Shown here piece by piece: positions 6,027-61,040 of a stretch of 64,000 nt of DNA. The DNA lies in contig CAVSHB010000002.1 in NCBI GenBank assembly GCA_963727775.1, positions 239,428-303,427 of the forward strand, read 5' to 3'. This DNA comes from an uncultured Nitrospiraceae bacterium. Lineage in GTDB: Bacteria; Nitrospirota; Thermodesulfovibrionia; Thermodesulfovibrionales; SM23-35. Position numbers and translations under genes: made by a program. The notes beneath the pieces were generated by a model. That model ran no database searches, was not told the DNA's origin, and saw only the letters and a program-made list of their open reading frames with translations. Numbering within the stretch: position 1 is the first letter of the stretch; the number at the start of each line of letters is the position of its first letter.

Positions 6027-6440
6027 ATGAAGAAAAAGCCTGTTTTCGGGTTTCTTTTTTTTGTTTTGATGGTTTCGGCGGCACTATGGCCCATAAGGTC
6101 TGCGCGAGCCGAGGAGGTAGTGCGGGCAAAGCTTACCAACGGCCTCAGGGTAGTGATCGTCCGGAATCCGCTTGTGCCGGTAGCCACGACAGTGGTCAAT
6201 TACCTTGTCGGTTCCGATGAGGCTCCCGCTGGATTCCCTGGTATGGCTCACGCACAGGAACATATGATGTTCCGTGGAACCCCCGGGCTCACAGCCGACC
6301 AGCTTGCGCGCATTACGGCGGAGATGGGGGGCAATTTTGACGCTGACACCCAGCAGAATGTAACACAGTATTTTTTTACCGTGCCGGTCGAAGACCTGGA
6401 TGTGGCCTTGCACATAGAAGCAATACGGATGAAAGGCGTC
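6027..6440 (+). pseudogene. M16 (pitrilysin/insulinase) family zinc peptidase, N-terminal fragment truncated by IS insertion
   Basis: Signal peptide; HxxEH zinc motif (HAQEHMMFRGT). The reading frame runs directly into the IS terminal repeat at 6441. Confidence 0.7.
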
Positions 6441-8151
6441 CTAGGAGTCTGTCGGACTTGAATTGCTGTTTTTGACAGCGGTTGGAATCCGAGAGAGTCG
6501 ATTGTAGTTATTTTTCATGATTTGATCGTCTGTCATCGGTTCTTTCCTGCCGGTGTTTTGTTGGATACATTATGCCATCGCCATTTTCAGGCGCCTACCT
6601 GGCTGTTCCTCAATGCATGCAGCCTTTTGATGTTCCATGCAATGCAGATCATATCCCACTCGCCATTGACTGCAGTAAAACCACGCAACAGGAATCGGTC
6701 AAATCCCATAGCTGCCTTGATTACCCCAAACGCCGGCTCCACAGTACTCTTGCGTATCGCATAAATTGCCTTACCGGCAACTGTCTTCAACCGATGTTTC
6801 ATTCTTGTCACTGCATCAGCATCAACCGGCAATGGAGGCGGTTCGACGAATCGCTCCCATAAAGGCTGATTATGACTCTGCCGATCTACTGCTATATATG
6901 GCTCTATTCCTTTGCTCTCACATTCTTGCACATTTGCTTCGCTGTAATACCCGCTGTCGGCTATTATAGTTTTTACTTTGCCAAGTTGTTCGGGCAGATA
7001 TGTAAGCGCTTCAAGCGCTGGTTTCATCTGCTGTTTGTCATTGGATTGTTGTGTTACATGCGTTGCGACAATAAGCATTGTTTCTGTATCCACGGCTGCT
7101 TGAGCATTATAAGCCTGCTTGAATCCTCCACCCGATGCCGGCATTATGCGAGATTCTTCATCGGTCAGATTGACCTGATCTTTGTCAGTTGGCCCGGCTG
7201 CAGGCGGCTTGGGTCCTTTGCCTCGGGGTTTCTTGCCGCTCTGCTTTTGTTTGGCTACACGCTCTGCCTGTTTCTTTTCACTGTCGGCTTGTTCCATTGC
7301 ATGCCGCTCTGCCGCACGGCGCTCTATCTCAGCTTTTGCTTCAGCTATCATTTTCAGCCGCTTCTCTCGCCGCTCCAGCTCTTCCGGGATGTTCATGCCG
7401 TCAGGAATGTCAGCTTTGTCAGCAGCCTCAGCTTTCTTCATCAGTTCCGCCACTTCCACTTTCAACTTATTCTCTATTTTGCATGCATGCCCGTAGCTCA
7501 ACGCCTTGTGCTTTGAGGCATTGGCTTTCATTTTGGTCCCATCCAAGCTGACCGTGCCTAACTTCAATACCCCGGTTTCTGCTGCTATCATTAGTATCTG
7601 CACAAACAGTTCTTTCAGCTTAGGCAAAAACCGACGTCGAAAGGTTGCTATTGTGTCATGGTCAGGGTGACTGTTGGCTGCCACATACCGGAATGCTACA
7701 GAGTCGTACGTGCTACGCTCTAATTGCCTGCTCGAAAAGACTCCCGTCGCATATCCGTAAAATAATAATGCCACCAGCATCTCAGGGCTGTATGCCTCAC
7801 TGCCTCGTCCTGCATAATCATTTTTCAACCGGTCAAGATTAAGCTGATCCACTATCTCTACGACAAATCTCGCCAAGTGACCCTCGGGCAACCATTCCTG
7901 CACCGACGGCGGAAATAAATATATCGTCTCTCTGTCACATTGTTTGAACATTATGCTGATCTCCTGTTGTTCATTCTTATGCCGCTTGTCTATTATGCCA
8001 TAAGGAACGCCCATGCAGGTCTGTCGGACTTAGATAATTACAGGCCGAAAAGATTTCTGCTGCCCAGTTTGCAATAAAGGTTCTTAAGAGACTGCCGTGT
8101 CCTTCAAGAAGTAAACTTTTCAGAAATGTTGAAAGTCCGACAGACTCCTAG
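6441..8151 (-). mobile_element. IS1182/IS5-like insertion sequence, copy 1 (1711 bp, perfect 19-bp TIR CTAGGAGTCTGTCGGACTT)
   Basis: Identical TIRs at 6441-6459 and 8133-8151. 100% identical to the copies at 42603-44313 and 59330-61040. Confidence 0.85.
6587..8014 (-). CDS. DDE transposase, IS1182 family (IS5 superfamily)
   Basis: 475 aa; DSGYYSEAN and C-terminal KRSTVEPAFGVIK...RFLLRG motifs typical of IS1182-type transposases. Confidence 0.85.
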   Translation of the reverse strand: MGVPYGIIDKRHKNEQQEISIMFKQCDRETIYLFPPSVQEWLPEGHLARFVVEIVDQLNLDRLKNDYAGRGSEAYSPEMLVALLFYGYATGVFSSRQLERSTYDSVAFRYVAANSHPDHDTIATFRRRFLPKLKELFVQILMIAAETGVLKLGTVSLDGTKMKANASKHKALSYGHACKIENKLKVEVAELMKKAEAADKADIPDGMNIPEELERREKRLKMIAEAKAEIERRAAERHAMEQADSEKKQAERVAKQKQSGKKPRGKGPKPPAAGPTDKDQVNLTDEESRIMPASGGGFKQAYNAQAAVDTETMLIVATHVTQQSNDKQQMKPALEALTYLPEQLGKVKTIIADSGYYSEANVQECESKGIEPYIAVDRQSHNQPLWERFVEPPPLPVDADAVTRMKHRLKTVAGKAIYAIRKSTVEPAFGVIKAAMGFDRFLLRGFTAVNGEWDMICIAWNIKRLHALRNSQVGA

Positions 8152-8424
8152 GTGGAATCGTATATTACTTAGAACCCCCCTGGCTATGAGGTCACTGATA
8201 GACCAAAATTCTTTACTGGCATTGCGAGCCTTACACTGCTGTGCCTGACGAACACCATTCTTTTGAATGATCCAAAGATCGACTCCTTGCTCGTCATCAC
8301 CGACGCCCTCAATGGTGACAGATTTAATTTTCTCTTCAAGAAGGGAAAGAAGTTGAGTGGCAACCCATCGGCCTTCATACCGGTTGCCAAGTTTATCCGC
8401 CAATCCTCCTGATTCAAATGGCAT
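8152..8424 (-). pseudogene. N-terminal fragment of an unknown gene whose frame runs into the right end of IS copy 1
   Basis: ORF MPFESGGLADKLGNRYEGRWVATQLL... reads through into IS sequence (..HLGVCRTFNISEKFTS). Unrelated to the M16 peptidase on the other flank. Confidence 0.4.
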
Positions 8425-25402: not shown

Positions 25403-27036
25403 CCTAAAAAAAGCAGTTAGAGATCATGCCACACCAGTTTGAGGGAGCAATTTCCCTGAATTTATGTTCAAAGGGCCGATGATTTTTCTAAAAGCATGCA
25501 TTGCTACAATCCTCATCCGCTCAGCGATATTCAACTGCTCCGCAGTGGTCCTAATATCCCCGAGGAACAGTGATAGTCGTAACAATGCTCCCCGCACCTT
25601 TTCAGCCTTTGCATGAGGACTGGTAATAGTCAGAAAAGTCTGTCCCCCATGTTTTGTCTGTTTCGCAACTGCGTGTAACAGCAACGGTCTGCTCGTTATT
25701 GCCTCATGATGTTTATTTGGATTGGCCAGGCGCACAAACAGCGACCACCAGTTATATACAAGAGCTACCATGCGACTAATCATGCGGCATCGCTTCAAAT
25801 CCTTTGTCGTATATCCGCCCCAGCCCCACTGATTCTTTAACTCGTCAAAGATATTTTCACTGTCTGCACGATCCCGGTAATGCTGTGCAATACTTGATAC
25901 CTCATCAGAAAGAGAAGTCACCAGCACCGTGTACTCATACTTAGCCACTCCCCCTTGTGTCTCGATGAAACTCATCTCCATTTGATCTTTCCCTTTTTTC
26001 TGCAAAAGAATATCCCCAGGTATAGGTCGGCGCAGCACGATCACCCGGCGACTACGGCTCCACCCAAATAACTTCAGCTCTGACTCCATTCCATAGTATC
26101 CGGCACCGGCTTTTACCCATTCTTCCATCTCAAACATTCTCTCGATCAATCTTTTTACATTCTTCGTAATCCTCAGCTTTGTGACATAATGTATACTACG
26201 TTTTTCTGCCTCTGATAACACTCCCTCTACTCCAAACGCTATATCTCCACGGATGAAGGCCGGCCGATTATCCCGGGGAATACTCTCTACCAATTCCCAT
26301 AATCCAGCCGTGCTGTGACTCGATGCGGTCTCATTGCCCGCCTTCACTTCTACCTTTAACGCTAATCGTGTGTTTGCCATAAAATAACTGTGGTAACTGT
26401 GTGAGGGCCGCCCAGGTTTCTTAGGATTATATCCCACAACTGCCCCCTCTTGTTTGCCATACAGACACTTTACCGTCGTGTCCGTATCAAGTATCCAGGA
26501 GGGGCCTGATACTGCCGATAATACAGGCATCGTGCAGCGTGCAAGCTCTGATTCAAGCCATTGTATCCCAGTCCCTTCTTCTATCTGCAATAAGGCCCGA
26601 CGCGCCGCATCTTCACTGATTATCTTATCCATCCCCAATAACTCGGGATTCACTCCATCACTTCGTATCGCTGCGATATGTGCATATCGCTTATGTCCCG
26701 CAAGTATCGAAAGCATGAGAGTGCCTAACACGTTTCTCTTCTTCGGCGCATTCGGGCTGCTATAGGAGAGGGGACACTCTTTTACAAAGGAATCAAACAA
26801 CCCGCTGACTTTCAGAAATTCTATGAAAAATGGCAACTGCCCCAATGGGGTAACAGCTGCATCAGGGTCCCATTCTACGTGTATCTTCCCCGCATATGTA
26901 TCAATTCCTACTGAGTTGCTCCTTGCTATCGCACGCCGTTTTGCCTCACCCATTAGGTGAACCCTCCTGCCACTCTTTTTCCGTTTATTATTGCATGCTT
27001 CGCCCCTTATGTGTATCCCGTACCGCTTTTTTTAGG
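25403..27036 (-). mobile_element. IS1380-family insertion sequence (copy C), ~1634 bp
   Basis: IRs CCTAAAAAAAGCAGT (25403) and ACCGCTTTTTTTAGG (ends 27036) bracket the transposase. Confidence 0.65.
25424..26953 (-). CDS. IS1380/IS4-type DDE transposase
   Basis: 509 aa; GYNPKKPGRPSHSYH...YRDRADSENIFDELKNQWGWGGY motifs. Confidence 0.8.
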   Translation of the reverse strand: MGEAKRRAIARSNSVGIDTYAGKIHVEWDPDAAVTPLGQLPFFIEFLKVSGLFDSFVKECPLSYSSPNAPKKRNVLGTLMLSILAGHKRYAHIAAIRSDGVNPELLGMDKIISEDAARRALLQIEEGTGIQWLESELARCTMPVLSAVSGPSWILDTDTTVKCLYGKQEGAVVGYNPKKPGRPSHSYHSYFMANTRLALKVEVKAGNETASSHSTAGLWELVESIPRDNRPAFIRGDIAFGVEGVLSEAEKRSIHYVTKLRITKNVKRLIERMFEMEEWVKAGAGYYGMESELKLFGWSRSRRVIVLRRPIPGDILLQKKGKDQMEMSFIETQGGVAKYEYTVLVTSLSDEVSSIAQHYRDRADSENIFDELKNQWGWGGYTTKDLKRCRMISRMVALVYNWWSLFVRLANPNKHHEAITSRPLLLHAVAKQTKHGGQTFLTITSPHAKAEKVRGALLRLSLFLGDIRTTAEQLNIAERMRIVAMHAFRKIIGPLNINSGKLLPQTGVA

Positions 27037-33406: not shown

Positions 33407-33971
33407 CTTGCTATATTGTAGTTAATGATGAGATCGATATATCTTCCAGGTAAGAATTGTTTATCCGGCAAAGGAAAGAAGGAGGAGATATTTATGAAAG
33501 GGTTACGGACGAAAAGAGTAAACATGATAAAGGAAGGGGCATTGATAGTAGCGATAGACATTGGTATGGCAAGTAACCATGGGTGCTGTGTGGCAGCAGA
33601 CGGGAGGAGCACCAAGACATTCAAGTTTGATAATACAAGAGAAGGACTTGATAGATTGTGGAACATGGTACTTGCGAGCAAAACCAGATTTCAATGCAAT
33701 GAGGTCATTATAGGATATGAGTCAACCGGACCTTATGGAGAGCCGTTGGTTCACTATCTCAAGCAGAAACCAGCAACGATCGTACAAGTAAACCCACTGC
33801 ACACGAAGAGGATGAGAGAGATCAATGACAACTCTCCATTAAAGACTGATCGTAAGGATCCCCGGGTAATCGCGGATGTCATACGGATAGGGCACGCCTT
33901 AAGCGTCGTGGTCCCAGAAGGTGCTGCCGCCTATTTGAGAAGAATAAATAATGCACGGGAGAGACATATTA

Positions 33972-35592
33972 ACCCGAAAAATGCGTTTGCTATAGGCATA
34001 CCTATAGAGTCAAGCCTATCAAGGCATTGGCTGATTTGTCGATATAAAAGCTAATACTGATGCTGTTTCTTGTTCCACCTCCTGAAAATTATGTTCTTTT
34101 TATCTAAATGCAGTGCAATTACCAAAACTGGGGGGAAAGTATTGTCCCACGCGGTTAAAGAGGTAGCGCAGTTTTGATCGTACTTTCTGCGTAAAGACAG
34201 AAATCCGCAATACAGGTTTCCTTCCATCCCATCCTAATTGGGCTGGAAGGACAAGATACTTGTACCGTAAGGTTTTCAAACGTTCTGTCTTTTCTTTTTG
34301 ACCGAGTATCTGATGCCTGAACAGGACAAACAGATTGTAGATGAATACCCGAATAAGCATAGCCGCCTCCGTTGAGTAGAAATACTTCATCGAGAACCCG
34401 CCGAGTGCAAAATCCTCTTTCAGTTCCTTGATGGTATTCTCATCGTTCGCCCTATGCCTGCATTGCTTCCATACCTCATATGTAGAATCATGTGAATTGG
34501 TTATCCATACGCTATAACGATAATGCCCTGTATCAAACTCATCTCCGAAAAGAGACAACTCTTTTCCCATCGCGTGCGGTCTCTTCTTGACATCCTGGCG
34601 CACTGCAATAAACCTCCTGTCGATTATCCACTCTACATGCTGGAAGAAGAACTCAGTGATCCATATCCCTTCTTCTACCTGTGCCCAGTTTTGTTGTGCG
34701 TAGATTATCCTCTGCAGCGGACGATATAGGCGAGCAGCTATGATATATACTAATTCTCTCTTCTCAAGCAGTTCGATGAACTCCCTAAGATAAAATCCAC
34801 TGTCTGCAATAATGCCCTTGATATCGATATGACCGTTGATCCTCTGCCATGTGGATTCAAAAAATCCAATAATGTTGTTCCATGACATCACGTTGCCGGG
34901 GCGGTTCCAAAGATTTATCACATACTTGTTTCTGTTAAGAAATGCCAGAAGCGGGCTGTGGCTACCACGGCCCTTCTTCTTCGGGTTATATCCCCTCTTG
35001 ACTCCCTCCTGTTTTCCGTATCGCTCAAGGACTGTAGAATCGAACGTCAACCAGTCCTCTTTGAGCTCTTTCCAGGGGATCAATCTCTTCAAGTATCCCC
35101 ATAATCCCTCCGACATCTCTTCCACTTCCTTCAGTTTTCTGATCTTCCTGAAAAGCCTGCCCAATGTCGTCGAGGCGATAGGAAGCCTCTTCACTGCAAA
35201 AAGATCGGTGAAAATCTCCTGCCAACCAAGATAAAGTAGATGAGAAAACCTGCTGCCTCCCGCATAGATCAGAAGGATGTATGCCAATACCTTGCTGTAT
35301 ATCCCCATTCCATTGGGTGAACTCTCATGGATCGGAATCACCTCTTGCAAAATTCCTCTCAATTTGATCTTTTCAAAAAATGCAGCCAATAAACTGAATC
35401 CCCCATATGCCGTCATCTTCTTCTCCGTAAATCCAATCCTTACTTTATTTATTTCGATCTTTGTGCTACATTTTGACTGCATATTTCTATTCTCCTTTCG
35501 TTTAGAGTTGATGGTCGGGTAAACCTATTGATTCTAATACGAAAGGAGAATTTCTTCGGGGATATTATTTTAGGTCAACTGCACTTTTTGGG
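33972..35592 (-). mobile_element. IS1380-family insertion sequence (copy B), 1621 bp, TSD TTAA
   Basis: TTAA at 33968-33971 and 35593-35596. IRs CCCGAAAAATGCG / CACTTTTTGGG. Confidence 0.7.
34100..35482 (-). CDS. IS1380/IS4-type DDE transposase
   Basis: 460 aa; GYNPKKKGRGSHSP...HRANDENTIKELKEDF motifs. Confidence 0.8.
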   Translation of the reverse strand: MQSKCSTKIEINKVRIGFTEKKMTAYGGFSLLAAFFEKIKLRGILQEVIPIHESSPNGMGIYSKVLAYILLIYAGGSRFSHLLYLGWQEIFTDLFAVKRLPIASTTLGRLFRKIRKLKEVEEMSEGLWGYLKRLIPWKELKEDWLTFDSTVLERYGKQEGVKRGYNPKKKGRGSHSPLLAFLNRNKYVINLWNRPGNVMSWNNIIGFFESTWQRINGHIDIKGIIADSGFYLREFIELLEKRELVYIIAARLYRPLQRIIYAQQNWAQVEEGIWITEFFFQHVEWIIDRRFIAVRQDVKKRPHAMGKELSLFGDEFDTGHYRYSVWITNSHDSTYEVWKQCRHRANDENTIKELKEDFALGGFSMKYFYSTEAAMLIRVFIYNLFVLFRHQILGQKEKTERLKTLRYKYLVLPAQLGWDGRKPVLRISVFTQKVRSKLRYLFNRVGQYFPPSFGNCTAFR

Positions 35593-36383
35593 TTAAAGAG
35601 CGGACCGCTCTTCTCAACCAATTACGGCAGTTTGTGTTTCTCATATTCCCAGAATTTGGCCGAATAATAAAGACGATATTCTGCAAAACATCCTTACATA
35701 TACTCAAGAAATATACGACACCGGCAAAGGTATGCAGCGTAAATATAGAGAAACTTGGAGGGGAAATGAGGAGATGTAGCATGGGCAAATTCGGGGTAGA
35801 ACATGCTACGGCGCTGATCAATTATGCAAAGACCACCATCGGTATTCAAGAAGGGTTGGACGGATTAGTTATGGATATACAGCACGCCCTCGTCCAGCTG
35901 GAGATGGTCGATAGTCTCATAGCGGAACTGGAGCACGAGATGGAGACAACCCTACAGCGCATACCCTACAGTCGCAAACTCCTGTCAATCAAAGGGCTCG
36001 GGATAGTAACGGTAGCAGGGCTTATTGGTGAGATAGGCGACTTTACAAAGTTTAAAACGCAGTCTGAGATAGCGAAGCTTGCCGGTCTTGACCTGTACGA
36101 AGTAAGCTCCGGGAAAAGACAAGGACAGAGGAGGATATCAAAGAGGGGCAGAAGCCTGTTACGGAAAATACTGTATTATGCCGCCATGCAGACAATCAGA
36201 AAGAACGGCATTATGCATGAGTACTACCAAAGACTGATAGGCCGGGGCATGAAAAGTATCATGGCGCTCGTTGCAGTATCCAGGAAACTATTGAGGATCA
36301 TATTTGCAATTGTAAGGGATGACACTGAATTCATAATGAATCATGAAGCTCAGAGAAAGGAGGAGATGAGAAAGGCCGCTTAG

Positions 36384-41826: not shown

Positions 41827-42186
41827 TTAATTTAATCTCACAATCAAGACATCAGCAACAAGCTCCTTGCCGTTGTTTGCTGACTTCGTTACTTTCTTGA
41901 GAGTGAAATCTTTTCCGCAAACGATTTTTGCAACATCTTCTGTTTTTAGGTTGGAGAACTGTTCTTGAGTTGCCGCCCACGTTACCGGTCCAACAGTTAC
42001 TGCTTTTCCCTCGCAATATCCTGCCACCATTGCGGTAACATTCCCAGCTTTGTTGTCATATGTTGCTCCCAGTCTTCCCGAAACTGTAGAGACAGATGAA
42101 GCTGCATAAGCCAGAGTTGCTCCGATGGAAACCGCTACTAATAACAAAACCATGAATAATAATCTCACGTTGGTCTTTTTACGCAT
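41827..42186 (-). CDS. hypothetical secreted protein
   Basis: Signal peptide MRKKTNVRLLFMVLLLVAVSIGATLAYA. Confidence 0.45.
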   Translation of the reverse strand: MRKKTNVRLLFMVLLLVAVSIGATLAYAASSVSTVSGRLGATYDNKAGNVTAMVAGYCEGKAVTVGPVTWAATQEQFSNLKTEDVAKIVCGKDFTLKKVTKSANNGKELVADVLIVRLN

Positions 42187-42395
42187 TTCGCCCCTCGCTT
42201 TTATTCCTCGAAAAAGTTTGTAAGAGAAAATCCGATCCCCCTGAGACATTCTTCCCTTCACCTCTCATCCAGACCCATACTGAGAGTTAAAGATTGTGTG
42301 GTTAGCTGTATGCTACTCTCTGTCTGGATTCTTGTCAAGATATCGTATATTTGGGTGGGATAATCTTTTACACATATTTGCTTATCGAATAGCAG

Positions 42396-42602: not shown

Positions 42603-44313
42603 CTAGGAGTCTGTCGGACTTGAATTGCTGTTTTTGACAGCGGTTGGAATCCGAGAGAGTCGATTGTAGTTATTTTTCATGATTTGATCGTCTGTCATCG
42701 GTTCTTTCCTGCCGGTGTTTTGTTGGATACATTATGCCATCGCCATTTTCAGGCGCCTACCTGGCTGTTCCTCAATGCATGCAGCCTTTTGATGTTCCAT
42801 GCAATGCAGATCATATCCCACTCGCCATTGACTGCAGTAAAACCACGCAACAGGAATCGGTCAAATCCCATAGCTGCCTTGATTACCCCAAACGCCGGCT
42901 CCACAGTACTCTTGCGTATCGCATAAATTGCCTTACCGGCAACTGTCTTCAACCGATGTTTCATTCTTGTCACTGCATCAGCATCAACCGGCAATGGAGG
43001 CGGTTCGACGAATCGCTCCCATAAAGGCTGATTATGACTCTGCCGATCTACTGCTATATATGGCTCTATTCCTTTGCTCTCACATTCTTGCACATTTGCT
43101 TCGCTGTAATACCCGCTGTCGGCTATTATAGTTTTTACTTTGCCAAGTTGTTCGGGCAGATATGTAAGCGCTTCAAGCGCTGGTTTCATCTGCTGTTTGT
43201 CATTGGATTGTTGTGTTACATGCGTTGCGACAATAAGCATTGTTTCTGTATCCACGGCTGCTTGAGCATTATAAGCCTGCTTGAATCCTCCACCCGATGC
43301 CGGCATTATGCGAGATTCTTCATCGGTCAGATTGACCTGATCTTTGTCAGTTGGCCCGGCTGCAGGCGGCTTGGGTCCTTTGCCTCGGGGTTTCTTGCCG
43401 CTCTGCTTTTGTTTGGCTACACGCTCTGCCTGTTTCTTTTCACTGTCGGCTTGTTCCATTGCATGCCGCTCTGCCGCACGGCGCTCTATCTCAGCTTTTG
43501 CTTCAGCTATCATTTTCAGCCGCTTCTCTCGCCGCTCCAGCTCTTCCGGGATGTTCATGCCGTCAGGAATGTCAGCTTTGTCAGCAGCCTCAGCTTTCTT
43601 CATCAGTTCCGCCACTTCCACTTTCAACTTATTCTCTATTTTGCATGCATGCCCGTAGCTCAACGCCTTGTGCTTTGAGGCATTGGCTTTCATTTTGGTC
43701 CCATCCAAGCTGACCGTGCCTAACTTCAATACCCCGGTTTCTGCTGCTATCATTAGTATCTGCACAAACAGTTCTTTCAGCTTAGGCAAAAACCGACGTC
43801 GAAAGGTTGCTATTGTGTCATGGTCAGGGTGACTGTTGGCTGCCACATACCGGAATGCTACAGAGTCGTACGTGCTACGCTCTAATTGCCTGCTCGAAAA
43901 GACTCCCGTCGCATATCCGTAAAATAATAATGCCACCAGCATCTCAGGGCTGTATGCCTCACTGCCTCGTCCTGCATAATCATTTTTCAACCGGTCAAGA
44001 TTAAGCTGATCCACTATCTCTACGACAAATCTCGCCAAGTGACCCTCGGGCAACCATTCCTGCACCGACGGCGGAAATAAATATATCGTCTCTCTGTCAC
44101 ATTGTTTGAACATTATGCTGATCTCCTGTTGTTCATTCTTATGCCGCTTGTCTATTATGCCATAAGGAACGCCCATGCAGGTCTGTCGGACTTAGATAAT
44201 TACAGGCCGAAAAGATTTCTGCTGCCCAGTTTGCAATAAAGGTTCTTAAGAGACTGCCGTGTCCTTCAAGAAGTAAACTTTTCAGAAATGTTGAAAGTCC
44301 GACAGACTCCTAG
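42603..44313 (-). mobile_element. IS1182/IS5-like insertion sequence, copy 2 (identical to copy 1)
   Basis: Same 1711 bp including the 19-bp TIRs. Confidence 0.85.
42749..44176 (-). CDS. DDE transposase, IS1182 family
   Basis: Identical 475-aa product. Confidence 0.85.
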   Translation of the reverse strand: MGVPYGIIDKRHKNEQQEISIMFKQCDRETIYLFPPSVQEWLPEGHLARFVVEIVDQLNLDRLKNDYAGRGSEAYSPEMLVALLFYGYATGVFSSRQLERSTYDSVAFRYVAANSHPDHDTIATFRRRFLPKLKELFVQILMIAAETGVLKLGTVSLDGTKMKANASKHKALSYGHACKIENKLKVEVAELMKKAEAADKADIPDGMNIPEELERREKRLKMIAEAKAEIERRAAERHAMEQADSEKKQAERVAKQKQSGKKPRGKGPKPPAAGPTDKDQVNLTDEESRIMPASGGGFKQAYNAQAAVDTETMLIVATHVTQQSNDKQQMKPALEALTYLPEQLGKVKTIIADSGYYSEANVQECESKGIEPYIAVDRQSHNQPLWERFVEPPPLPVDADAVTRMKHRLKTVAGKAIYAIRKSTVEPAFGVIKAAMGFDRFLLRGFTAVNGEWDMICIAWNIKRLHALRNSQVGA

Positions 44314-44429: not shown

Positions 44430-45326
44430 TTAATAGGAAGATATCAGGGGGCAATTTTGGGGTAGCACCAGCTTAATTGTACCCGGCAGCACCTCAAAGC
44501 GAATTTTGTTTGTTTTAATAGGCTCACCATCCAGATTGATCGGCATCGCAACATCAGACTCCCATTCAGCCCAAGGCACCCTATAACGCTTGATATAATC
44601 TCCGCTGACTTCAGACTCCGTCAACTCCCTTATCACTTGCCCCAGATCTTTTGGTGGAAAGCGGAGTAATCCTACAATATCCAGCAACCCGTCATCAATA
44701 AAAGCGCTGGGAGCTAACTGCTGGCCACCACCGGCCTGCTTACCATTACACACAGCGCCGACGATAACATCATTTTGCAAAGACCCCTGGGGCATACGCA
44801 GTTCGCCCTTATAAGGCACAAATTTCAGCGCTTGTACCATAGCGGAAAGAGTATAAGCGCCTCCACCGAGAAAATTCTTTAACGCCACTGGCGTGTTTGC
44901 TGTCACCTGAGCTCCAAAGCCGCCACTGGCCACGTTGATAAAGTGGAATTCGTTGGCCCTTACACCATCAACGGCACATGACTGACCGGATTGAGCCAGT
45001 TCCAGCGCAGCCAATGGATCCGAAGGGATGGAACATGCTGTGGCAAAATCGTTGGCAGTACCAAGCGGCAGTATTGCCAATTCCGGTCGCTCAGCGGCTG
45101 GCAGTTGTAACATGGCATCAACAACCTCATTTACAGTGCCATCTCCACCGCCTGCCACCAGGCGAAGACATCCATCAGCGCAAGCTTCTCGAACCAGCCG
45201 TTTAACATCACCTGCTTCCCAGGTGACCCTGACTTCAACGCCGCCGTTTTCTCTTGCGCTGTAAATCGCTGTCCGAACAGGTTTAAGTGCTGCTTTTTTA
45301 CCGTTTAAAATGATTCGAATATCCAT
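44430..45326 (-). CDS. diacylglycerol kinase catalytic-domain family lipid kinase (YegS/DgkA-like)
   Basis: GGDGT motif; DAGK_cat fold signature. Confidence 0.7.
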   Translation of the reverse strand: MDIRIILNGKKAALKPVRTAIYSARENGGVEVRVTWEAGDVKRLVREACADGCLRLVAGGGDGTVNEVVDAMLQLPAAERPELAILPLGTANDFATACSIPSDPLAALELAQSGQSCAVDGVRANEFHFINVASGGFGAQVTANTPVALKNFLGGGAYTLSAMVQALKFVPYKGELRMPQGSLQNDVIVGAVCNGKQAGGGQQLAPSAFIDDGLLDIVGLLRFPPKDLGQVIRELTESEVSGDYIKRYRVPWAEWESDVAMPINLDGEPIKTNKIRFEVLPGTIKLVLPQNCPLISSY

Positions 45327-53257: not shown

Positions 53258-53394
53258 AATATTCCTTTCCAAAGAAACGGCTTCTTTCGGGTATCCCAAA
53301 TATTATATCAGTTCGGCCTGCTGGCTTGCCTTTCCAATCTCAAAGGTCTTAGCCTGCATAATTCATAAGATCGCTGACAGATATAGTATTTGCA

Positions 53395-53484
53395 CGGTTT
53401 TAAATTCTTTCGAAGAAAGAATTTACCTCGGAGGCCCGATTTGTACCGGGCCGAGAATGAGCGCAAATACTGTATTTGTCGGCC
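53395..53484 (+). repeat. REP-like palindromic element, copy A
   Basis: CTCGGAGGCCCGATTTGTACCGGGCCGAG hairpin core. Reverse-complement copy at 56118-56228. Confidence 0.7.
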
Positions 53485-53541
53485 CATTCAAATTCTATGA
53501 ATCACATGAGTCAGGCCACTTTATGCATACAATGGGGTTAT

Positions 53542-53728: not shown

Positions 53729-54919
53729 ATGGCGCAGGAGAATAATCATCTATCAAAAAAAGATGTCGTGATCATAGGCGCCGGAGCTGCAGGCCTTATG
53801 TGTGCGATAGAGGCCGGGAAACGGCACCGCTCGGTCCTTGTCCTTGAACACAAGAATAAGATAGGGAATAAAATCAGGGTTTCAGGAGGCGGCCGCTGCA
53901 ATTTCACCAATATAAATCTGCTGTCTGAAAATTACCTTTCTGCCAACCCACACTTCTGTAAATCCGCGCTTGCACGTTTTACGCCCCATGATTTCATCGC
54001 TATGGTAGAAAGGCACGGGATTGCATATTACGAAAAGGAAAAAGGCCGGCTCTTTTGCCACGGGACCTCGGGGGATATCGTCAGGATGCTCCATGAGGAA
54101 TGCCGCAGCGCGGGTGTTGAAATGCGCTTGAATTGCAGAGTCGGAAGCATAATGAGAACCGACCACTTCTCTATCTCAACGAACTTCGGCAATATAGAAG
54201 CGGACTCTTTGGTTATTGCAACAGGCGGATTGTCTTATCCGCAACTCGGCGCAACGGACATGGGGTTCCGAATAGCCCGGAGGTTCGGGATTAAGGCCAC
54301 TCAACTGAAACCGGCATTGGTGCCTCTTGTTTTCGGTCACCAGGATTTGAAAAAGTACGCTGAATTGAGCGGAGTTTCATTTGATGCGATGGTTGAATGC
54401 AGAGGCAGGCAATTCCGGGAAGAAATCCTTTTTACTCACACGGGCCTAAGTGGGCCTGCTATCCTTCAGGTCTCATCCTATTGGGAACGCGGGGATACGA
54501 TCATTATAGATCTGATGCCCGACACGGAAGCATATGAACTTTTTATGTCGAAACGCGGCAGCAGAATGGAGTTGAGCAACCTTCTCGCGGAACATCTTCC
54601 CAGGAGATTCAGCCACAGGTGGTGCGATATAAATACACCTTCAAGGCCATTATGCCGATTTACGGAAAAGGAGCTTAAGGAAATAGCGCATCTGATACAC
54701 CACTGGACAATAAAGCCCGAAGGGACCGGGGGCTATAAAAATGCGGAGATTACAGCAGGCGGAATAGACACTGATGAACTGTCATCCAGGACCATGGAAA
54801 CAAAAAAAGTGCCCGGCCTCTATTTCGCCGGAGAGGTCATTGATGTCGCCGGACAGCTCGGAGGCTATAACCTTCAATGGGCCTGGTCCTCAGGATTTGT
54901 TGCAGGCCAGTATGCGTAA
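53729..54919 (+). CDS. NAD(P)/FAD-dependent oxidoreductase, HI0933/BaiN family flavoprotein
   Basis: VVIIGAGAAGLMCA (Rossmann dinucleotide-binding motif); GGGRCNFTN. Confidence 0.75.
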   Translation: MAQENNHLSKKDVVIIGAGAAGLMCAIEAGKRHRSVLVLEHKNKIGNKIRVSGGGRCNFTNINLLSENYLSANPHFCKSALARFTPHDFIAMVERHGIAYYEKEKGRLFCHGTSGDIVRMLHEECRSAGVEMRLNCRVGSIMRTDHFSISTNFGNIEADSLVIATGGLSYPQLGATDMGFRIARRFGIKATQLKPALVPLVFGHQDLKKYAELSGVSFDAMVECRGRQFREEILFTHTGLSGPAILQVSSYWERGDTIIIDLMPDTEAYELFMSKRGSRMELSNLLAEHLPRRFSHRWCDINTPSRPLCRFTEKELKEIAHLIHHWTIKPEGTGGYKNAEITAGGIDTDELSSRTMETKKVPGLYFAGEVIDVAGQLGGYNLQWAWSSGFVAGQYA

Positions 54920-56001: not shown

Positions 56002-56117
56002 AAGATGACCGAACGCATTACTATTTGACTAAATAATAATGCGTTCAACTGAAAATATCTGCCGAACAATATTGTGATTTCATATTTAACCCACTTAATT
56101 CATGAAATTTGCGGCTG

Positions 56118-56228
56118 CCGACAAATACAATATTTGCGCTCATTCTCGGCCCGGTACAGATCGGGCCTCCGAGGTAAATTCTTTCTTCGAAAGAATTTAA
56201 AACCGCTTAAATACTGTATCTGTCGGCA
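56118..56228 (-). repeat. REP-like palindromic element, copy B (inverted relative to copy A)
   Basis: Reverse complement matches 53395-53484 at about 95%. Confidence 0.7.
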
Positions 56229-56305
56229 ATCTTATGAATAGTGTAAGTTTAGATTGATTATCAGTTATGTCCGGGTATCGAACTTCGACGGACAAGGAGA
56301 GATGA

Positions 56306-58586
56306 ATGGAGATAAAGGAAGCACATTTTTCAATTATTTCTGAAGAGCTTGAGATAAAGACGGCACAGGTTAAGGCAACGGCCCTGCTTCTCGGAGAAGG
56401 GGCGACCGTGCCGTTTATAGCGAGATACAGAAAAGAGGCTACCGGAAGCCTTGACGAGGTTGCCGTCACAGCTATCAGGGACAGGCTGGAGCAGTTAGCT
56501 GAATTGGACCAAAGGCGTGAAGCAGTCTTGAAGTCTCTCGATGAACGGGGGCTCATTACGGACGAGTTAAGGGGGAAGGTCGCAGGCGCCTCCTCTTTAA
56601 CAGAACTCGAAGATATCTATCTGCCCTTCAGACCGAAACGCCGCACAAGGGCCACTGCGGCAAAAGAGAAGGGTCTCGAACCTTTGGCAGCAATGATTTT
56701 TGAACAGGGCGAAATCGACCCCGAGACTGAAGCCACTTCTTTTGTCGATCTGGAAAAAGGGGTCGAAACTGTTGAGGAAGCCCTTTCCGGCGCACGCGAT
56801 ATCATTGCTGAATGGGTAACCGAGGACCAGAAGGCCAGGGAAAAGATGCGTGAACTCTATTCCCGCAAAGGAGTGATGAAGTCAAAAGTCATCTCCGCGA
56901 AGGAAGAAGAAGGGATAAAGTACCGCGACTATTACGGATGGGAAGAGCCGGCTTCGAAGTCTCCTTCGCACAGGGTCCTTGCCATACGCCGGGGCGAAGA
57001 AGGAGGGCTTTCTCAGTTTGCGGATTGTCCCGCCTGAAGATGAGGCTATTACACTCCTTGAAGCTCTTTTCATAAAAGGCGCATCTCCGGCATCCGAACA
57101 GGTAAAGACTGCTGTAATCGACAGTTTTAAAAGACTTCTCTCACTCTCGATTGAGACAGAGATACGCCTTGCGCTGAAAAAACGGGCAGATGAAGAGGCG
57201 ATCAGGGTATTTGCAGAGAATCTGAGACAGCTTCTTCTTGCTCCACCGCTCGGAGGGAAAAACGTTCTGGCGATCGATCCCGGCTTTAGGACCGGCTGCA
57301 AGGTTGTCTGCCTCGATAGACAGGGAAAGTTATTGGAGAATGATACAATTTATCCCCTTTTTTCGGATAAGGGCACATCGGAGGCAGCGGCGAAGATCAG
57401 GCAACTCTGTGAAAGGTTCGGGATAGAAGCTATCGCGATAGGAAACGGTACCGCCGGTAGGGAAACCGAGACCTTTGTTATGGGCATCGGTTTGCCGGAG
57501 AATATTGCGGTTGTAATGGTGAACGAAAGCGGCGCGTCAATCTATTCGGCTTCCGAGGTGGCGCGTGAAGAATTCCCGGACCGGGATGTAACGGTGCGTG
57601 GCGCTGTTTCGATCGGGAGAAGGCTGATAGACCCTTTGGCGGAGCTGGTTAAGATCGATCCTAAATCGATCGGGGTCGGACAATACCAGCACGATGTCGA
57701 CCAGCCAGCCCTAAAAAAGAGCCTCGATGACGTTGTTATCAGCTGCGTGAACGGCGTAGGGGTTGAGGTGAATACCGCGAGCAAAGAACTTCTTACTTAC
57801 GTCTCCGGGTTGGGTCCGCAGCTTGCGAGAAACATCGTAGCATTCAGAAATGATAACGGACCGCTTAGGTCGAGGAAAGACCTCATGAAAGTCCCACGCC
57901 TGGGGCCGAAGGCCTTTGAACAGGCAGCGGGTTTCCTCCGTATCAGGGATGGGGAGAACCCTCTCGACAGAAGCGCAGTGCATCCCGAAAGTTATCACAT
58001 CGTTGATACGATGGCGAAGGATATGGGATGTCCCATAGTCGAACTTATGGAAGACGAGTCTCTCAGAAAGACGATTGATATTACCCGCTATGTGACCGAT
58101 ACGGTCGGAATTCCCACCTTAAGCGACATCATGGCCGAGCTTTCCCGGCCCGGCCGCGACCCGAGAGATAAATATGAATCTTTCCGGTTCACAGAAGGCA
58201 TCGAGAAGCTGGAAGACGTGAAGCCCGGGATGAAGCTCCCTGGGATCGTTACGAATATAACCGCTTTCGGGGTCTTTGTGGACATCGGCGTTCATCAGGA
58301 CGGCCTTATTCATATCAGTGAACTTTCCGACAGGTATGTGAAAAATCCTGCAGAGGTGGTGAAGGTCCATCAGAAGGTCTTTGTGACCGTCTTTGATGTG
58401 GACCTCCAGAGGAAGCGAATCTCCCTATCGATGAAAAGCAAGCCGGTTAAAACCGATGGACAGCCCGAGGCAAAGGAAAAAATAAAAGTAAACAGCGAGG
58501 CCATGAAGGAAAAGAAAGAAAAAAAAGGTAGTAGGCCGAAGCGGTTTGTGAATAACCCTTTTTACGAGGCACTCAGGAAGAAGTGA
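56306..58586 (+). pseudogene. tex: transcription accessory protein Tex with +1 frameshift in a G-run near 57003-57007 (or sequencing error)
   Basis: Two overlapping ORFs (56306-57037, 56979-58586). The second frame continues ...AIRRGEE|GFLSLRIVPPED. YqgF/HhH/S1 domains follow. Confidence 0.65.
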
Positions 58587-58618: not shown

Positions 58619-58885
58619 TTACCTGAATCGATCTATGAGTTTATGCGTACCGACAAAATAAAGCTTATAAATGTTGCCTTCCTGCTGGAAAATACACCTA
58701 TAGAAGTCGTCTACATAAAACTCCCAGAAATCAGAACCTTCAAGCTTGTGTATTTTTAAGGAAGGAAGTTTTGGATTATCGTTGAGAAGGGATATTTGTT
58801 TTTTAAATTTTTTCTTTATACCTTTGGGTAATTCATCGTACTGCGCAAAGAAATCCGGCTCTATGGATATGAGATAGTTGCTCAA
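58619..58885 (-). CDS. RelE/ParE-superfamily toxin-like protein
   Basis: 88 aa; overlaps the upstream antitoxin by 4 nt. Confidence 0.5.
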   Translation of the reverse strand: MSNYLISIEPDFFAQYDELPKGIKKKFKKQISLLNDNPKLPSLKIHKLEGSDFWEFYVDDFYRCIFQQEGNIYKLYFVGTHKLIDRFR

Positions 58886-59157
58886 TCTCTCTTTCCCAGT
58901 TCCTTTAGAAGCTCATCAACTTTATATGTCTTAGACCTGCCTTCTCTGAATGTCTTTTCAGCCTTCCTTATCTTTTCCTGTACCTCCTCAGACCAGAACC
59001 ACGCCTGTGAGCGGGGAATGTGGATGGAGGGCTCAAGAACGAGCTTTCCTTCCCGTACCTCCAGAATAAGCTGATCACCTTCCTTTATGTGAAGTATTTC
59101 ACACACATCTTTCGGTATGGCTATCTGCCGTTTCGGCGAAACTGTCAGTGTCTTCAT
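58882..59157 (-). CDS. AbrB/MazE-type antitoxin (swapped-hairpin DNA-binding domain)
   Basis: VSPKRQIAIPKDVCEILHIKEGDQLIL motif. Confidence 0.6.
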   Translation of the reverse strand: MKTLTVSPKRQIAIPKDVCEILHIKEGDQLILEVREGKLVLEPSIHIPRSQAWFWSEEVQEKIRKAEKTFREGRSKTYKVDELLKELGKRD

Positions 59158-59329
59158 AACTCAATCTCCTTACAAAATTTTACTGCTTAGTAAAATAGTA
59201 AAATAATTTTACTATTTTGTCAACGCTTATTGAAGTCCGTCAGATTCGGGATCAACTTCTGTAACTAATGACGTACAAAGAACGATAGATATGCATATTT
59301 GAAGTAACCGAAAAATTATTTTACGCCCA

Positions 59330-61040
59330 CTAGGAGTCTGTCGGACTTGAATTGCTGTTTTTGACAGCGGTTGGAATCCGAGAGAGTCGATTGTAGTTAT
59401 TTTTCATGATTTGATCGTCTGTCATCGGTTCTTTCCTGCCGGTGTTTTGTTGGATACATTATGCCATCGCCATTTTCAGGCGCCTACCTGGCTGTTCCTC
59501 AATGCATGCAGCCTTTTGATGTTCCATGCAATGCAGATCATATCCCACTCGCCATTGACTGCAGTAAAACCACGCAACAGGAATCGGTCAAATCCCATAG
59601 CTGCCTTGATTACCCCAAACGCCGGCTCCACAGTACTCTTGCGTATCGCATAAATTGCCTTACCGGCAACTGTCTTCAACCGATGTTTCATTCTTGTCAC
59701 TGCATCAGCATCAACCGGCAATGGAGGCGGTTCGACGAATCGCTCCCATAAAGGCTGATTATGACTCTGCCGATCTACTGCTATATATGGCTCTATTCCT
59801 TTGCTCTCACATTCTTGCACATTTGCTTCGCTGTAATACCCGCTGTCGGCTATTATAGTTTTTACTTTGCCAAGTTGTTCGGGCAGATATGTAAGCGCTT
59901 CAAGCGCTGGTTTCATCTGCTGTTTGTCATTGGATTGTTGTGTTACATGCGTTGCGACAATAAGCATTGTTTCTGTATCCACGGCTGCTTGAGCATTATA
60001 AGCCTGCTTGAATCCTCCACCCGATGCCGGCATTATGCGAGATTCTTCATCGGTCAGATTGACCTGATCTTTGTCAGTTGGCCCGGCTGCAGGCGGCTTG
60101 GGTCCTTTGCCTCGGGGTTTCTTGCCGCTCTGCTTTTGTTTGGCTACACGCTCTGCCTGTTTCTTTTCACTGTCGGCTTGTTCCATTGCATGCCGCTCTG
60201 CCGCACGGCGCTCTATCTCAGCTTTTGCTTCAGCTATCATTTTCAGCCGCTTCTCTCGCCGCTCCAGCTCTTCCGGGATGTTCATGCCGTCAGGAATGTC
60301 AGCTTTGTCAGCAGCCTCAGCTTTCTTCATCAGTTCCGCCACTTCCACTTTCAACTTATTCTCTATTTTGCATGCATGCCCGTAGCTCAACGCCTTGTGC
60401 TTTGAGGCATTGGCTTTCATTTTGGTCCCATCCAAGCTGACCGTGCCTAACTTCAATACCCCGGTTTCTGCTGCTATCATTAGTATCTGCACAAACAGTT
60501 CTTTCAGCTTAGGCAAAAACCGACGTCGAAAGGTTGCTATTGTGTCATGGTCAGGGTGACTGTTGGCTGCCACATACCGGAATGCTACAGAGTCGTACGT
60601 GCTACGCTCTAATTGCCTGCTCGAAAAGACTCCCGTCGCATATCCGTAAAATAATAATGCCACCAGCATCTCAGGGCTGTATGCCTCACTGCCTCGTCCT
60701 GCATAATCATTTTTCAACCGGTCAAGATTAAGCTGATCCACTATCTCTACGACAAATCTCGCCAAGTGACCCTCGGGCAACCATTCCTGCACCGACGGCG
60801 GAAATAAATATATCGTCTCTCTGTCACATTGTTTGAACATTATGCTGATCTCCTGTTGTTCATTCTTATGCCGCTTGTCTATTATGCCATAAGGAACGCC
60901 CATGCAGGTCTGTCGGACTTAGATAATTACAGGCCGAAAAGATTTCTGCTGCCCAGTTTGCAATAAAGGTTCTTAAGAGACTGCCGTGTCCTTCAAGAAG
61001 TAAACTTTTCAGAAATGTTGAAAGTCCGACAGACTCCTAG
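59330..61040 (-). mobile_element. IS1182/IS5-like insertion sequence, copy 3 (identical)
   Basis: Same 1711 bp and TIRs. Confidence 0.85.
59476..60903 (-). CDS. DDE transposase, IS1182 family
   Basis: Identical 475-aa product. Confidence 0.85.
   Translation of the reverse strand: MGVPYGIIDKRHKNEQQEISIMFKQCDRETIYLFPPSVQEWLPEGHLARFVVEIVDQLNLDRLKNDYAGRGSEAYSPEMLVALLFYGYATGVFSSRQLERSTYDSVAFRYVAANSHPDHDTIATFRRRFLPKLKELFVQILMIAAETGVLKLGTVSLDGTKMKANASKHKALSYGHACKIENKLKVEVAELMKKAEAADKADIPDGMNIPEELERREKRLKMIAEAKAEIERRAAERHAMEQADSEKKQAERVAKQKQSGKKPRGKGPKPPAAGPTDKDQVNLTDEESRIMPASGGGFKQAYNAQAAVDTETMLIVATHVTQQSNDKQQMKPALEALTYLPEQLGKVKTIIADSGYYSEANVQECESKGIEPYIAVDRQSHNQPLWERFVEPPPLPVDADAVTRMKHRLKTVAGKAIYAIRKSTVEPAFGVIKAAMGFDRFLLRGFTAVNGEWDMICIAWNIKRLHALRNSQVGA

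What the first reader, a model, noticed from the sequence alone, without database searches (positions are those of the whole stretch)
6441..8151. Three 100%-identical IS1182/IS5-like copies in direct orientation; copy 1 joins two unrelated truncated genes, indicating IS-mediated rearrangement
Copies at 6441, 42603 and 59330 are identical over 1711 bp, including the 19-bp perfect TIR. All three are immediately flanked by c/TAG, suggesting CTAG-type target preference. At copy 1 the left flank is an M16 peptidase N-terminus on the + strand. The right flank is the N-terminus of a different gene on the - strand that reads into the IS. Neither gene continues on the other side of the element. This is inconsistent with a simple insertion. 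It implies deletion or inversion by recombination between IS copies. Direct repeats 34 kb and 15 kb apart could also mobilise or delete the intervening segments.
Basis: seen in the sequence. Interest (0 to 1): 0.5.

Follow-up and report, generated by a model that had tools for sequence, protein, structure and literature searches.

The report
IS1182 insertion sequence marking a rearrangement
Three identical copies of an ordinary jumping gene (an IS1182-family insertion sequence that lands on the rare sequence CTAG) lie in this window, and one sits between the stumps of two unrelated genes, which is the usual scar of an IS-driven deletion or inversion and not a new kind of element.

Summary
Copies at 6441-8151, 42603-44313 and 59330-61040 are 100% identical over 1711 bp and lie in direct orientation. 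Each unit is CTAG, a 1703-bp core with 15-bp perfect terminal inverted repeats, then CTAG. The single ORF scores 380 bits on NCBIfam's IS1182 model (cut-off 270).

Copy 1 is flanked on the left by the first 138 codons of an M16 peptidase. On the right, on the opposite strand, it is flanked by the first 91 codons of a ~1540-aa nuclease-like/STAND-NTPase/HEAT-repeat protein. Neither gene continues anywhere in the window. Homologues of both genes have Leu-Asp (CTA GAy) at the break, so each IS end sits on a native CTAG of a different gene. That fits transposase-made junctions, not a random break.

The most likely history is an IS-mediated deletion that removed the 3' parts of two convergent genes (at least ~5 kb). 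An inversion, or a misjoin through the identical repeat during metagenome assembly, cannot be excluded. A k-mer assembly of the reads confirms each junction separately but not their linkage.

Copies 2 and 3 are plain intergenic insertions. This is a new, unnamed member of a known IS family doing a textbook thing, so interest is low.

The parts
6441..8151 (-). IS copy 1 (1711-bp repeat unit: CTAG + 1703-bp core + CTAG), with hybrid flanks. The strand given is that of the transposase.
   Evidence: It is 100% identical to the other two copies. Logan k-mer contigs of run ERR11594402 reach 29 nt into it from the left (L001, to 6469) and from the right (L091, to 8123).
6445..6459 (+). Left terminal inverted repeat core, GAGTCTGTCGGACTT
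   Evidence: The same core, or GAGCC/CAGCC variants of it, ends relatives with 52-93% aa identity.
8133..8147 (-). Right terminal inverted repeat core
6587..8014 (-). Transposase ORF, 475 aa. Public gene calls use the Met at 7951, giving 454 aa.
   Evidence: NCBIfam IS1182 NF033551 scores 380 bits against a cut-off of 270. Pfam finds DUF772, DDE_Tnp_1 and DDE_Tnp_1_6. D158, D353 and E426 are invariant in 17 relatives. The 454-aa form is on record on 5 other contigs.
8017..8031 (+). Internal third copy of the terminal motif (AGGTCTGTCGGACTT), just upstream of the 475-aa ORF start. Possibly a subterminal transposase-binding or autoregulatory site (inferred).
   Evidence: It is conserved in the 88%-identical relative L002.
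6027..6443 (+). 5' stump of an M16 (pitrilysin-type) peptidase gene: 138 codons plus the Leu codon CTA of the target CTAG. It keeps the HxxEH motif and lacks everything after ...IRMKGV-L.
   Evidence: Pfam PF00675. Homologues continue with LD-SEKLW..ERGAIEQEV, and there is no such sequence elsewhere in the window.
8149..8424 (-). 5' stump (91 codons plus Leu CTA) of a ~1540-aa nuclease-like N-terminus / STAND-AAA NTPase / HEAT-repeat protein gene
   Evidence: 965 homologues at E<=1e-3. The best full-length ones are 1500-1555 aa and match query residues 1-92 to their own residues 1-92. Weak nSTAND3/AAA/HEAT Pfam hits appear in full-length homologues. No other part of the gene is in the window.
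42603..44313 (-). IS copy 2, an intergenic insertion between genes 41827-42261(-) and 44430-45326(-)
   Evidence: Logan contig L092 confirms the right junction.
59330..61040 (-). IS copy 3, an intergenic insertion between a MazE-type antitoxin gene (58882-59157, -) and an IS110-type element (transposase 61574-62836, -)
   Evidence: Logan contig L093 confirms the left junction.

Best explanation
The repeat is an active IS1182-family insertion sequence. It has a single DDE transposase and 15-bp terminal inverted repeats, and it integrates at the palindrome CTAG. It leaves CTAG on both sides, either as a 4-bp duplication or as a TA duplication inside CTAG. It has recently multiplied in this genome, which is an uncultured, probably Nitrospirota/Thermodesulfovibrionales-like MAG.

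Copies 2 and 3 are simple intergenic insertions. Copy 1 is a rearrangement junction. Its left end is joined to a native CTAG inside an M16 peptidase gene, and its right end to a native CTAG inside an unrelated large STAND-NTPase gene.

The most likely history is a deletion between two convergent genes. One route is that the IS inserted in one gene and one of its ends then attacked the CTAG in the other gene (intramolecular transposition, 'adjacent deletion'). The other route is that two same-orientation copies, one in each gene, recombined homologously. Either route leaves one IS between the two 5' stumps and removes the 3' parts. That is roughly 0.9 kb or more of the peptidase, about 4.3 kb of the STAND gene, and anything in between.

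Shown: the identity of the copies, the family, both truncations, CTAG at both breaks, and each junction present in reads. Inferred: deletion as opposed to inversion, the size of the loss, and which route was taken.
For: Copies and family:
- The three copies are identical.
- The IS1182 profile scores above its cut-off, the domain architecture fits, and the D/D/E residues are invariant.
- The identical element is found at 3 further sites in another assembly. In a k-mer contig from an unrelated run it appears as exactly 1711 bp (CTAG...CTAG), which is the maximal sequence shared by several copies there.

Target site:
- CTAG flanks about 29 of 30 relatives whose ends could be found.
- The captured IS1182-family member ISPse1 makes 4-bp direct repeats (PMC3281130).

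Truncations at copy 1:
- The peptidase homologues stop aligning at 6440-6443 and match nothing else in the window.
- The STAND homologues match only 8.1-8.4 kb.
- Both homologue families have Leu-Asp at the break, which is CTA GAy, so CTAG was native in both genes.
- CTAG is rare here: 17 in 64 kb against 245 expected from base composition. Two breaks on CTAG are therefore not a coincidence.

Geometry and reads:
- Both stumps are 5' parts converging on the IS, which is the geometry a single deletion produces.
- Both junctions are present in the independent k-mer assembly of ERR11594402.
- The window is IS-rich, with two DDE_Tnp_1_4 elements and two IS110-type elements, one of them nested.
Against: Linkage of the two junctions across one and the same IS copy rests only on the deposited assembly. 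The rest of the 891-kb contig and of the genome could not be read, so the missing 3' parts may exist elsewhere, which would mean an inversion or a misjoin. No close relative with the ancestral gene order was found. Synteny around the left neighbour is not conserved at 77-83% identity, so it is unproven that the two genes were ever neighbours or convergent. No empty site was available to fix the duplication length.
Confidence: 0.5

Rival explanations
1. Inversion. Two inverted copies of the IS, one in each gene (or a replicative intramolecular transposition that created the second, inverted copy), recombined and flipped the segment between them. Copy 1 then carries the two 5' stumps. A partner copy outside the window carries the two 3' parts, diverging from it.
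For: An inversion produces exactly the observed geometry of two N-terminal stumps converging on the IS, with both breaks at CTAG. Nothing is lost, so no essential gene needs to be deleted.
Against: The partner must be in inverted orientation, but the only other copies within reach (42603 and 59330) are direct. The inverted segment would therefore have to exceed 56 kb to the right or 6.4 kb to the left. A search with a full-length STAND homologue returned no C-terminal fragment from the 891-kb contig among the best 120 hits, but that test is weak.
Confidence: 0.2
2. Assembly misjoin. The genome really has two simple insertions, one in the peptidase gene and one in the STAND gene. The metagenome assembler crossed from one to the other through the 1.7 kb of identical sequence, producing a chimeric path.
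For: The copies are 100% identical and 1.7 kb long. The source is a metagenome-assembled contig. The k-mer contigs stop 27-29 nt inside the IS at every junction, so they say nothing about linkage. A Tex-like gene is split by a frameshift at a G-run (56979-57037), which shows residual assembly error. Another contig from a related assembly ends in an odd partial tandem of this IS (L088).
Against: The contig names and lengths (contig_NNNNN, 891 kb) and the homopolymer frameshift suggest a long-read assembly, in which a 1.7-kb repeat is normally spanned. This is an inference, not a check. A misjoin would also require the other two half-genes to be placed elsewhere, and none is next to copies 2 or 3 or to the three further sites seen.
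Confidence: 0.2
3. The IS was captured at a double-strand break during a large deletion, without transposase target choice or target duplication. This has been reported for an IS5/IS1182-type element in E. coli C.
For: bioRxiv 10.1101/2024.06.02.596822 describes a 62-kb deletion with a new IS copy at the deletion site and no TSD.
Against: Both breakpoints here lie exactly on native CTAG sites, a tetranucleotide roughly 14-fold depleted in this window. Random breaks would not do that.
Confidence: 0.03
4. Composite transposon. The segment bounded by copy 1 and copy 2 (or copy 3) inserted as one unit into the peptidase gene.
For: Two or three direct copies bracket 34-kb and 15-kb segments.
Against: The sequence to the right of copy 2 (44314 onward) and of copy 3 (61041 onward) does not continue the peptidase. 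No match to the conserved LDSEKLW..ERGAIEQEV region exists anywhere in the window. The segment also begins with a truncated gene.
Confidence: 0.02

Closest known systems
ISPse1 and other IS1182-family insertion sequences (ISfinder family IS1182)
   Same: It has a single DDE transposase matching NF033551 above the cut-off, with the DUF772 + DDE_Tnp_1 architecture. It is about 1.7 kb long with short perfect terminal inverted repeats. ISPse1 is 1653 bp with 16/16 IRs and 4-bp direct repeats (PMC3281130).
   Different: It is an unnamed element. The closest transposases found are 93% identical, in Nitrospirota MAGs, and the plasmid-borne IS1182 elements share only 62-65% nucleotide identity over part of the length. 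Whether the duplication is 4 bp (CTAG) or 2 bp (TA) could not be settled.
IS5 (IS5 family, IS5 group)
   Same: IS5 has a DDE transposase of the same superfamily and a known preference for CTAG (YTAR) targets with a 4-bp duplication (PMC5493358 is listed; the target rule itself is from my own knowledge).
   Different: The IS5 NCBIfam models score far below their cut-offs (best 66.8 against 140). The element here is also longer, with a roughly 130-residue charged insertion between the first and second catalytic Asp.
IS-mediated adjacent deletions and IS-by-IS recombination deletions (e.g. IS1, IS903, IS26; textbook)
   Same: One IS is left between two sequences that were not originally adjacent, and the flanking genes are truncated exactly at the IS ends.
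   Different: Because every insertion carries the same CTAG, the usual diagnostic of non-matching target duplications is uninformative here. The hybrid nature shows only in the gene content of the flanks.
IS insertion at a deletion site without TSD (bioRxiv 10.1101/2024.06.02.596822)
   Same: An IS5/IS1182-type element sits at a large deletion.
   Different: There, no target duplication or target preference was seen. Here both breaks are at the element's preferred CTAG.

Membership tests
IS1182 family | Transposase matches the curated IS1182 family profile above its cut-off | tested here: met
   NF033551 scores 380 bits, E=1.8e-113, against a cut-off of 270.
IS1182 family | DDE transposase with an N-terminal DUF772 domain and a C-terminal DDE_Tnp_1 domain, and a conserved D, D, E triad | tested here: met
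   Pfam finds PF05598, PF01609 and PF13751. D158 (LDGT), D353 (ADSGY) and E426 (followed by K433) are invariant in 17 relatives of 52-93% identity. Their catalytic role is inferred, not assayed.
IS1182 family | Element of about 1.3-2 kb with one ORF and terminal inverted repeats | tested here: met
   The core is 1703 bp (1711 bp with both CTAGs), with one long ORF and 15/15 perfect TIRs. The family size range is from my own knowledge of ISfinder.
IS1182 family | Short target-site duplication (4 bp in the captured member ISPse1) | tested here: inconclusive
   CTAG lies on both sides of all 3 copies here, of 2 further sites, and of about 29 of 30 relatives. CTAG was native in both disrupted genes. 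No empty site was available. The exceptions L004 (ATAG) and L023 (CTAG/CTAT) would also fit a TA duplication with GG...CC ends.
IS1182 family | Evidence of mobility | tested here: met
   There are at least 6 distinct insertion sites of the identical sequence (3 in the window, 3 in ERZ25039480 contigs), plus a multi-copy signature in SRR27973298. This is indirect evidence with no transposition assay.
IS5 family | Transposase matches an IS5 family profile above its cut-off | tested here: not met
   The best model, NF033581, scores 66.8 bits against a cut-off of 140, and the others score lower.
Composite transposon | Outer flanks of the two bounding IS copies are contiguous in the uninterrupted target | tested here: not met
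   The peptidase does not resume after copy 2 or copy 3, and the STAND gene does not resume before them.

The most novel reading that the evidence does not exclude
The element may be in an ongoing burst in which intramolecular attacks on the few available CTAG sites, and not recombination between copies, are the main source of deletions in this lineage. Only 11 non-IS CTAGs lie in 64 kb. On this reading the copy-1 junction and the partial tandem IS seen in L088 would be two products of the same process. CTAG scarcity would channel where the genome can break, and here it happens to have destroyed a STAND-type (defence-like) gene.
Probability: 0.2. Interest if true: 0.3.

Novelty: new member of a known kind. 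Interest (0 to 1): 0.12.

Why it matters
It matters mainly for annotation and assembly quality control. The peptidase and STAND ORFs at 6027-6461 and 8104-8424 are gene stumps fused to IS sequence, not genes. The contig should be checked with spanning long reads at all three copies.

Biologically it documents a recently expanded, CTAG-targeting IS1182 element in an uncultured lineage, and one probable IS-driven loss of at least 5 kb. That is useful as a data point on IS-driven genome erosion, but it is not surprising to a specialist.

Tried and rejected
1. Exact look-up of the 475-aa transposase found nothing. The 454-aa form starting at Met22 worked, but it did not return the source contig, so the rest of the genome could not be read.

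2. The GTDB genome scan with the transposase did not contain the source genome.

3. I tried to reconstruct the ancestral gene order from homologues of the left neighbour (476-aa metallophosphoesterase). Synteny is not conserved and no M16 gene lies next to it in relatives.

4. I searched for the missing STAND C-terminus with a full-length homologue, P0128. Only full-length proteins were listed and none came from the 891-kb contig. This is inconclusive, because only 120 of 818 hits are shown and family identity is about 41-50%.

5. The search for homologous proteins with the 138-aa peptidase stump returned only proteins of 242 aa or fewer. No full-length peptidase was obtained, so the amount of peptidase lost is an estimate.

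6. Look-ups of genes next to copies 2 and 3 returned only the same sample. No empty site was found to define the duplication.

7. The 106-aa fused ORF is not on record.

8. PADLOC on the STAND stump gave only a sub-threshold HamA-like hit (E=0.016), so I do not call it a known defence system.

9. Rfam found nothing in the window.

10. A TIR-like 15-mer with 2 mismatches at 59233-59247 has no further IS similarity around it, and I do not count it as a remnant.

Full report
**Observation**

The repeat search and a base-by-base extension show three copies, at 6441-8151, 42603-44313 and 59330-61040. They are identical over exactly 1711 bp and diverge immediately outside. All are in the same orientation, with 34,451 and 15,016 bp between them. 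Each unit reads CTAG, then GAGTCTGTCGGACTT ... AAGTCCGACAGACTC, then CTAG.

**What the element is**

The only long ORF (6587-8014, minus strand, 475 aa) scores 380 bits on NCBIfam's IS1182 model against a cut-off of 270. All IS5 models fall well below their cut-offs. Pfam finds DUF772, DDE_Tnp_1 and DDE_Tnp_1_6.

In an alignment with 16 relatives of 52-93% identity, D158 (LDGT), D353 (ADSGY) and E426 (with K433 seven residues on) are invariant. These are the expected DDE signature of this superfamily. That assignment is from established knowledge, not assayed.

Public gene calls start the protein at Met22. That 454-aa form is recorded on five other contigs:
- Three contigs of ENA assembly ERZ25039480 have different flanks, giving three more insertion sites. 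Two have CTAG on both sides.
- Two k-mer (Logan) contigs also carry it. The one from an unrelated run, SRR27973298, is exactly the 1711-bp unit from CTAG to CTAG. A de Bruijn contig takes that form when several copies share everything up to and including the CTAGs and nothing beyond.

The nearest relatives in species-representative genomes are 93% identical transposases in Nitrospirota MAGs. Plasmid-borne elements annotated 'IS1182 family transposase' share 62-65% nucleotide identity over part of the length. The element is a new, unnamed member of IS1182.

**Target site**

Among relatives whose ends I could locate, about 29 of 30 have CTAG immediately outside GAG(C/T)CTGTCGGACTT or CAGCCTGTCGGACTT. 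The exceptions are ATAG in L004 and CTAG/CTAT in L023.

The two disrupted genes show whether CTAG belongs to the element or to the target:
- Peptidase homologues read ...IRMRGV-L-D-SEKLW at the break.
- STAND homologues read ...(Q/H)-L-D-RDP.

In both, Leu-Asp is CTA GAy, so CTAG was already present in each gene. CTAG is very rare here: 17 occurrences in 64 kb against 245 expected from base composition and 78 from a second-order Markov model. Six of the 17 are the IS ends and none lies inside the IS.

The element therefore integrates at CTAG and leaves it on both sides. The captured family member ISPse1 makes 4-bp direct repeats (PMC3281130). Without an empty site I cannot exclude a TA duplication with GG...CC ends, which would also explain the two exceptions.

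**Flanks of copy 1**

The left flank (6027-6440, plus strand) is the signal peptide and first 138 residues of an M16 peptidase (PF00675, profile positions 1-90 of 149). It includes the HxxEH motif. Thirty-eight homologues of 220 aa or more align up to 6440-6488 and to nothing else in the window, although the next ~100 residues are highly conserved in the family.

The right flank, on the minus strand (8424 down to 8152), is the first 91 residues of a protein family whose full-length members are 1500-1555 aa. These carry weak nSTAND/AAA and HEAT-repeat signatures. Seventy-five homologues of 900 aa or more match only 8.1-8.4 kb.

Both ORFs run into the IS and end after the same IS-encoded residues, LGVCRT.... 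Neither gene resumes on the other side of copy 1, nor next to copies 2 or 3. As assembled, copy 1 is not a simple insertion, and the simple composite-transposon reading is ruled out.

**Copies 2 and 3**

Copy 2 lies between the 3' end of a DAGK/YegS-type gene (44430-45326) and the upstream region of 41827-42261. Copy 3 lies between a MazE-type antitoxin gene and an IS110-type element. No truncated genes abut either copy, so they look like plain insertions.

**Support from reads**

The stump ORF and its neighbours are on record from a single 891,376-bp contig and from Logan contigs of run ERR11594402. The Logan contigs reach:
- from the left flank to 6469 (L001);
- from the right flank to 8123 (L091);
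- from the right of copy 2 to 44287 (L092);
- from the left of copy 3 to 59357 (L093).

That is 27-29 nt into the IS, where a k=31 graph must branch. Four of the six junctions, including both junctions of copy 1, are therefore real in the reads. Their linkage across one IS copy is not tested by this.

The IS itself assembles without a branch for 1617 bp in that run (L090). This argues that the copies are truly identical and not merely homogenised by polishing.

**Mechanism**

Both stumps are 5' parts that converge on the IS. A single deletion between two convergent genes gives exactly this product. It can arise in two ways:
- Intramolecular transposition of one IS end to the second CTAG (adjacent deletion).
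- Homologous recombination between two same-orientation copies, one in each gene.

The products of these two routes are indistinguishable, especially since every site carries the same CTAG. The loss would be roughly 4.3 kb of the STAND gene, the rest of the peptidase (0.9 kb or more if it is of the ~430-aa type; this is an estimate, since no full-length homologue was retrieved) and anything between.

An inversion between inverted copies gives the same local picture, with the two 3' parts at a partner copy. That partner would have to lie outside the window, because the copies within reach are direct.

A break-capture model (bioRxiv 10.1101/2024.06.02.596822) fits poorly, because both breaks are on the preferred, rare target.

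A misjoin through the identical repeat remains the main non-biological rival. The contig does carry at least one probable indel error: a Tex-like gene is split at a G-run (56979-57037), and Logan contig L093 ends there.

I put deletion at about 0.5, inversion at 0.2 and misjoin at 0.2.

**What could not be done**

The rest of the source contig was not retrievable. Relatives close enough to show the ancestral order were not found. A search for the missing STAND C-terminus was inconclusive.

**Verdict**

This is a new member of a known IS family producing a textbook rearrangement scar. Interest is low (0.12). Its practical value is in flagging two pseudogene stumps and three repeat-spanning positions that need long-read validation.

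**Other things seen in the window**

These are listed separately. The most notable is a 14-copy, ~65-nt promoter-like module confined to 25.3-47.5 kb.

Noticed in passing
window 25282-47454 (14 sites: 25282, 27695, 29536, 30766, 33078, 33351, 37113, 37764, 40642, 41242, 41689, 42386, 45397 on the - strand; 47390 on the + strand): A ~65-nt conserved module occurs 14 times. Its consensus on the reading strand is TTCCTTCCTGAA-N~20-TGATATAATTGTGTTnAGTACAACCGGAAATC. It contains an extended -10-like box, and most copies (about 11 of 14) sit 30-90 nt upstream of start codons, mostly of small secreted or membrane protein genes. A PWM built from the copies finds nothing else above 18 bits in the window. 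Weaker copies occur in L088. There is no Rfam match. It looks like a lineage-specific shared promoter or operator for a co-regulated 22-kb cluster. IS copy 2 sits inside that cluster, 158 bp upstream of one module.
   Followed up: partly
window 33425-36383, 25424-26953 and 61574-62836: There are further insertion sequences. A DDE_Tnp_1_4 transposase gene (34100-35482, -) splits an IS110-type transposase gene into 33425-34054 (DEDD domain) and 35634-36383 (Transposase_20 domain). A second DDE_Tnp_1_4 gene lies at 25424-26953 (-). An intact IS110-type gene at 61574-62836 (-) lies 533 bp from IS copy 3. The window is unusually IS-rich.
   Followed up: partly
window 8017-8031 (and the same position in copies 2 and 3): There is a third, internal copy of the terminal repeat motif (AGGTCTGTCGGACTT, 13 of 15 bases), just upstream of the long ORF's ATG and 116 bp inside the right end. 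It is conserved in the 88%-identical relative L002. It could be a subterminal transposase-binding or autoregulatory site.
   Followed up: partly
L088 5801-8559 (ENA ERZ25039480 contig_60352, contig end): A full IS copy is directly abutted by a partial copy (IS positions 5-1058), with the junction at ...CCCGTAGCT|GTCTGTCGG. This is either a second rearrangement product of this IS or an artefact at a contig end.
   Followed up: no
window 56306-58586: A Tex-like transcription accessory protein gene is split into two overlapping ORFs (56306-57037 and 56979-58586) by a frameshift at a G-run around 56990-57010. Logan contig L093 ends at 56998. This is probably a homopolymer assembly error or a polymorphic site.
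   Followed up: partly
window 53347-53511 and 56089-56253: A 165-nt inverted repeat, 85% complementary, lies in two intergenic regions bracketing a HI0933-like flavoprotein gene (53729-54919) and a 119-aa ORF. Its nature is unknown. It could be a MITE-like element or a duplicated regulatory region.
   Followed up: no
whole window: CTAG is strongly depleted: 17 occurrences against 245 expected from base composition and 78 from a second-order Markov model. Six of the 17 are the IS ends and the IS has none internally.
   Followed up: yes
window 8149-8424, and proteins P0126, P0128 and P0129: The truncated right-flank gene belongs to a widespread family of ~1540-aa proteins that is unnamed in Pfam. 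The family has a conserved nuclease-like N-terminal ~90 residues (D...QxK motif), a STAND/AAA NTPase and C-terminal HEAT repeats. There are 965 representatives at E<=1e-3, across many phyla and on a Bacillus plasmid. No PADLOC model matches above noise.
   Followed up: partly
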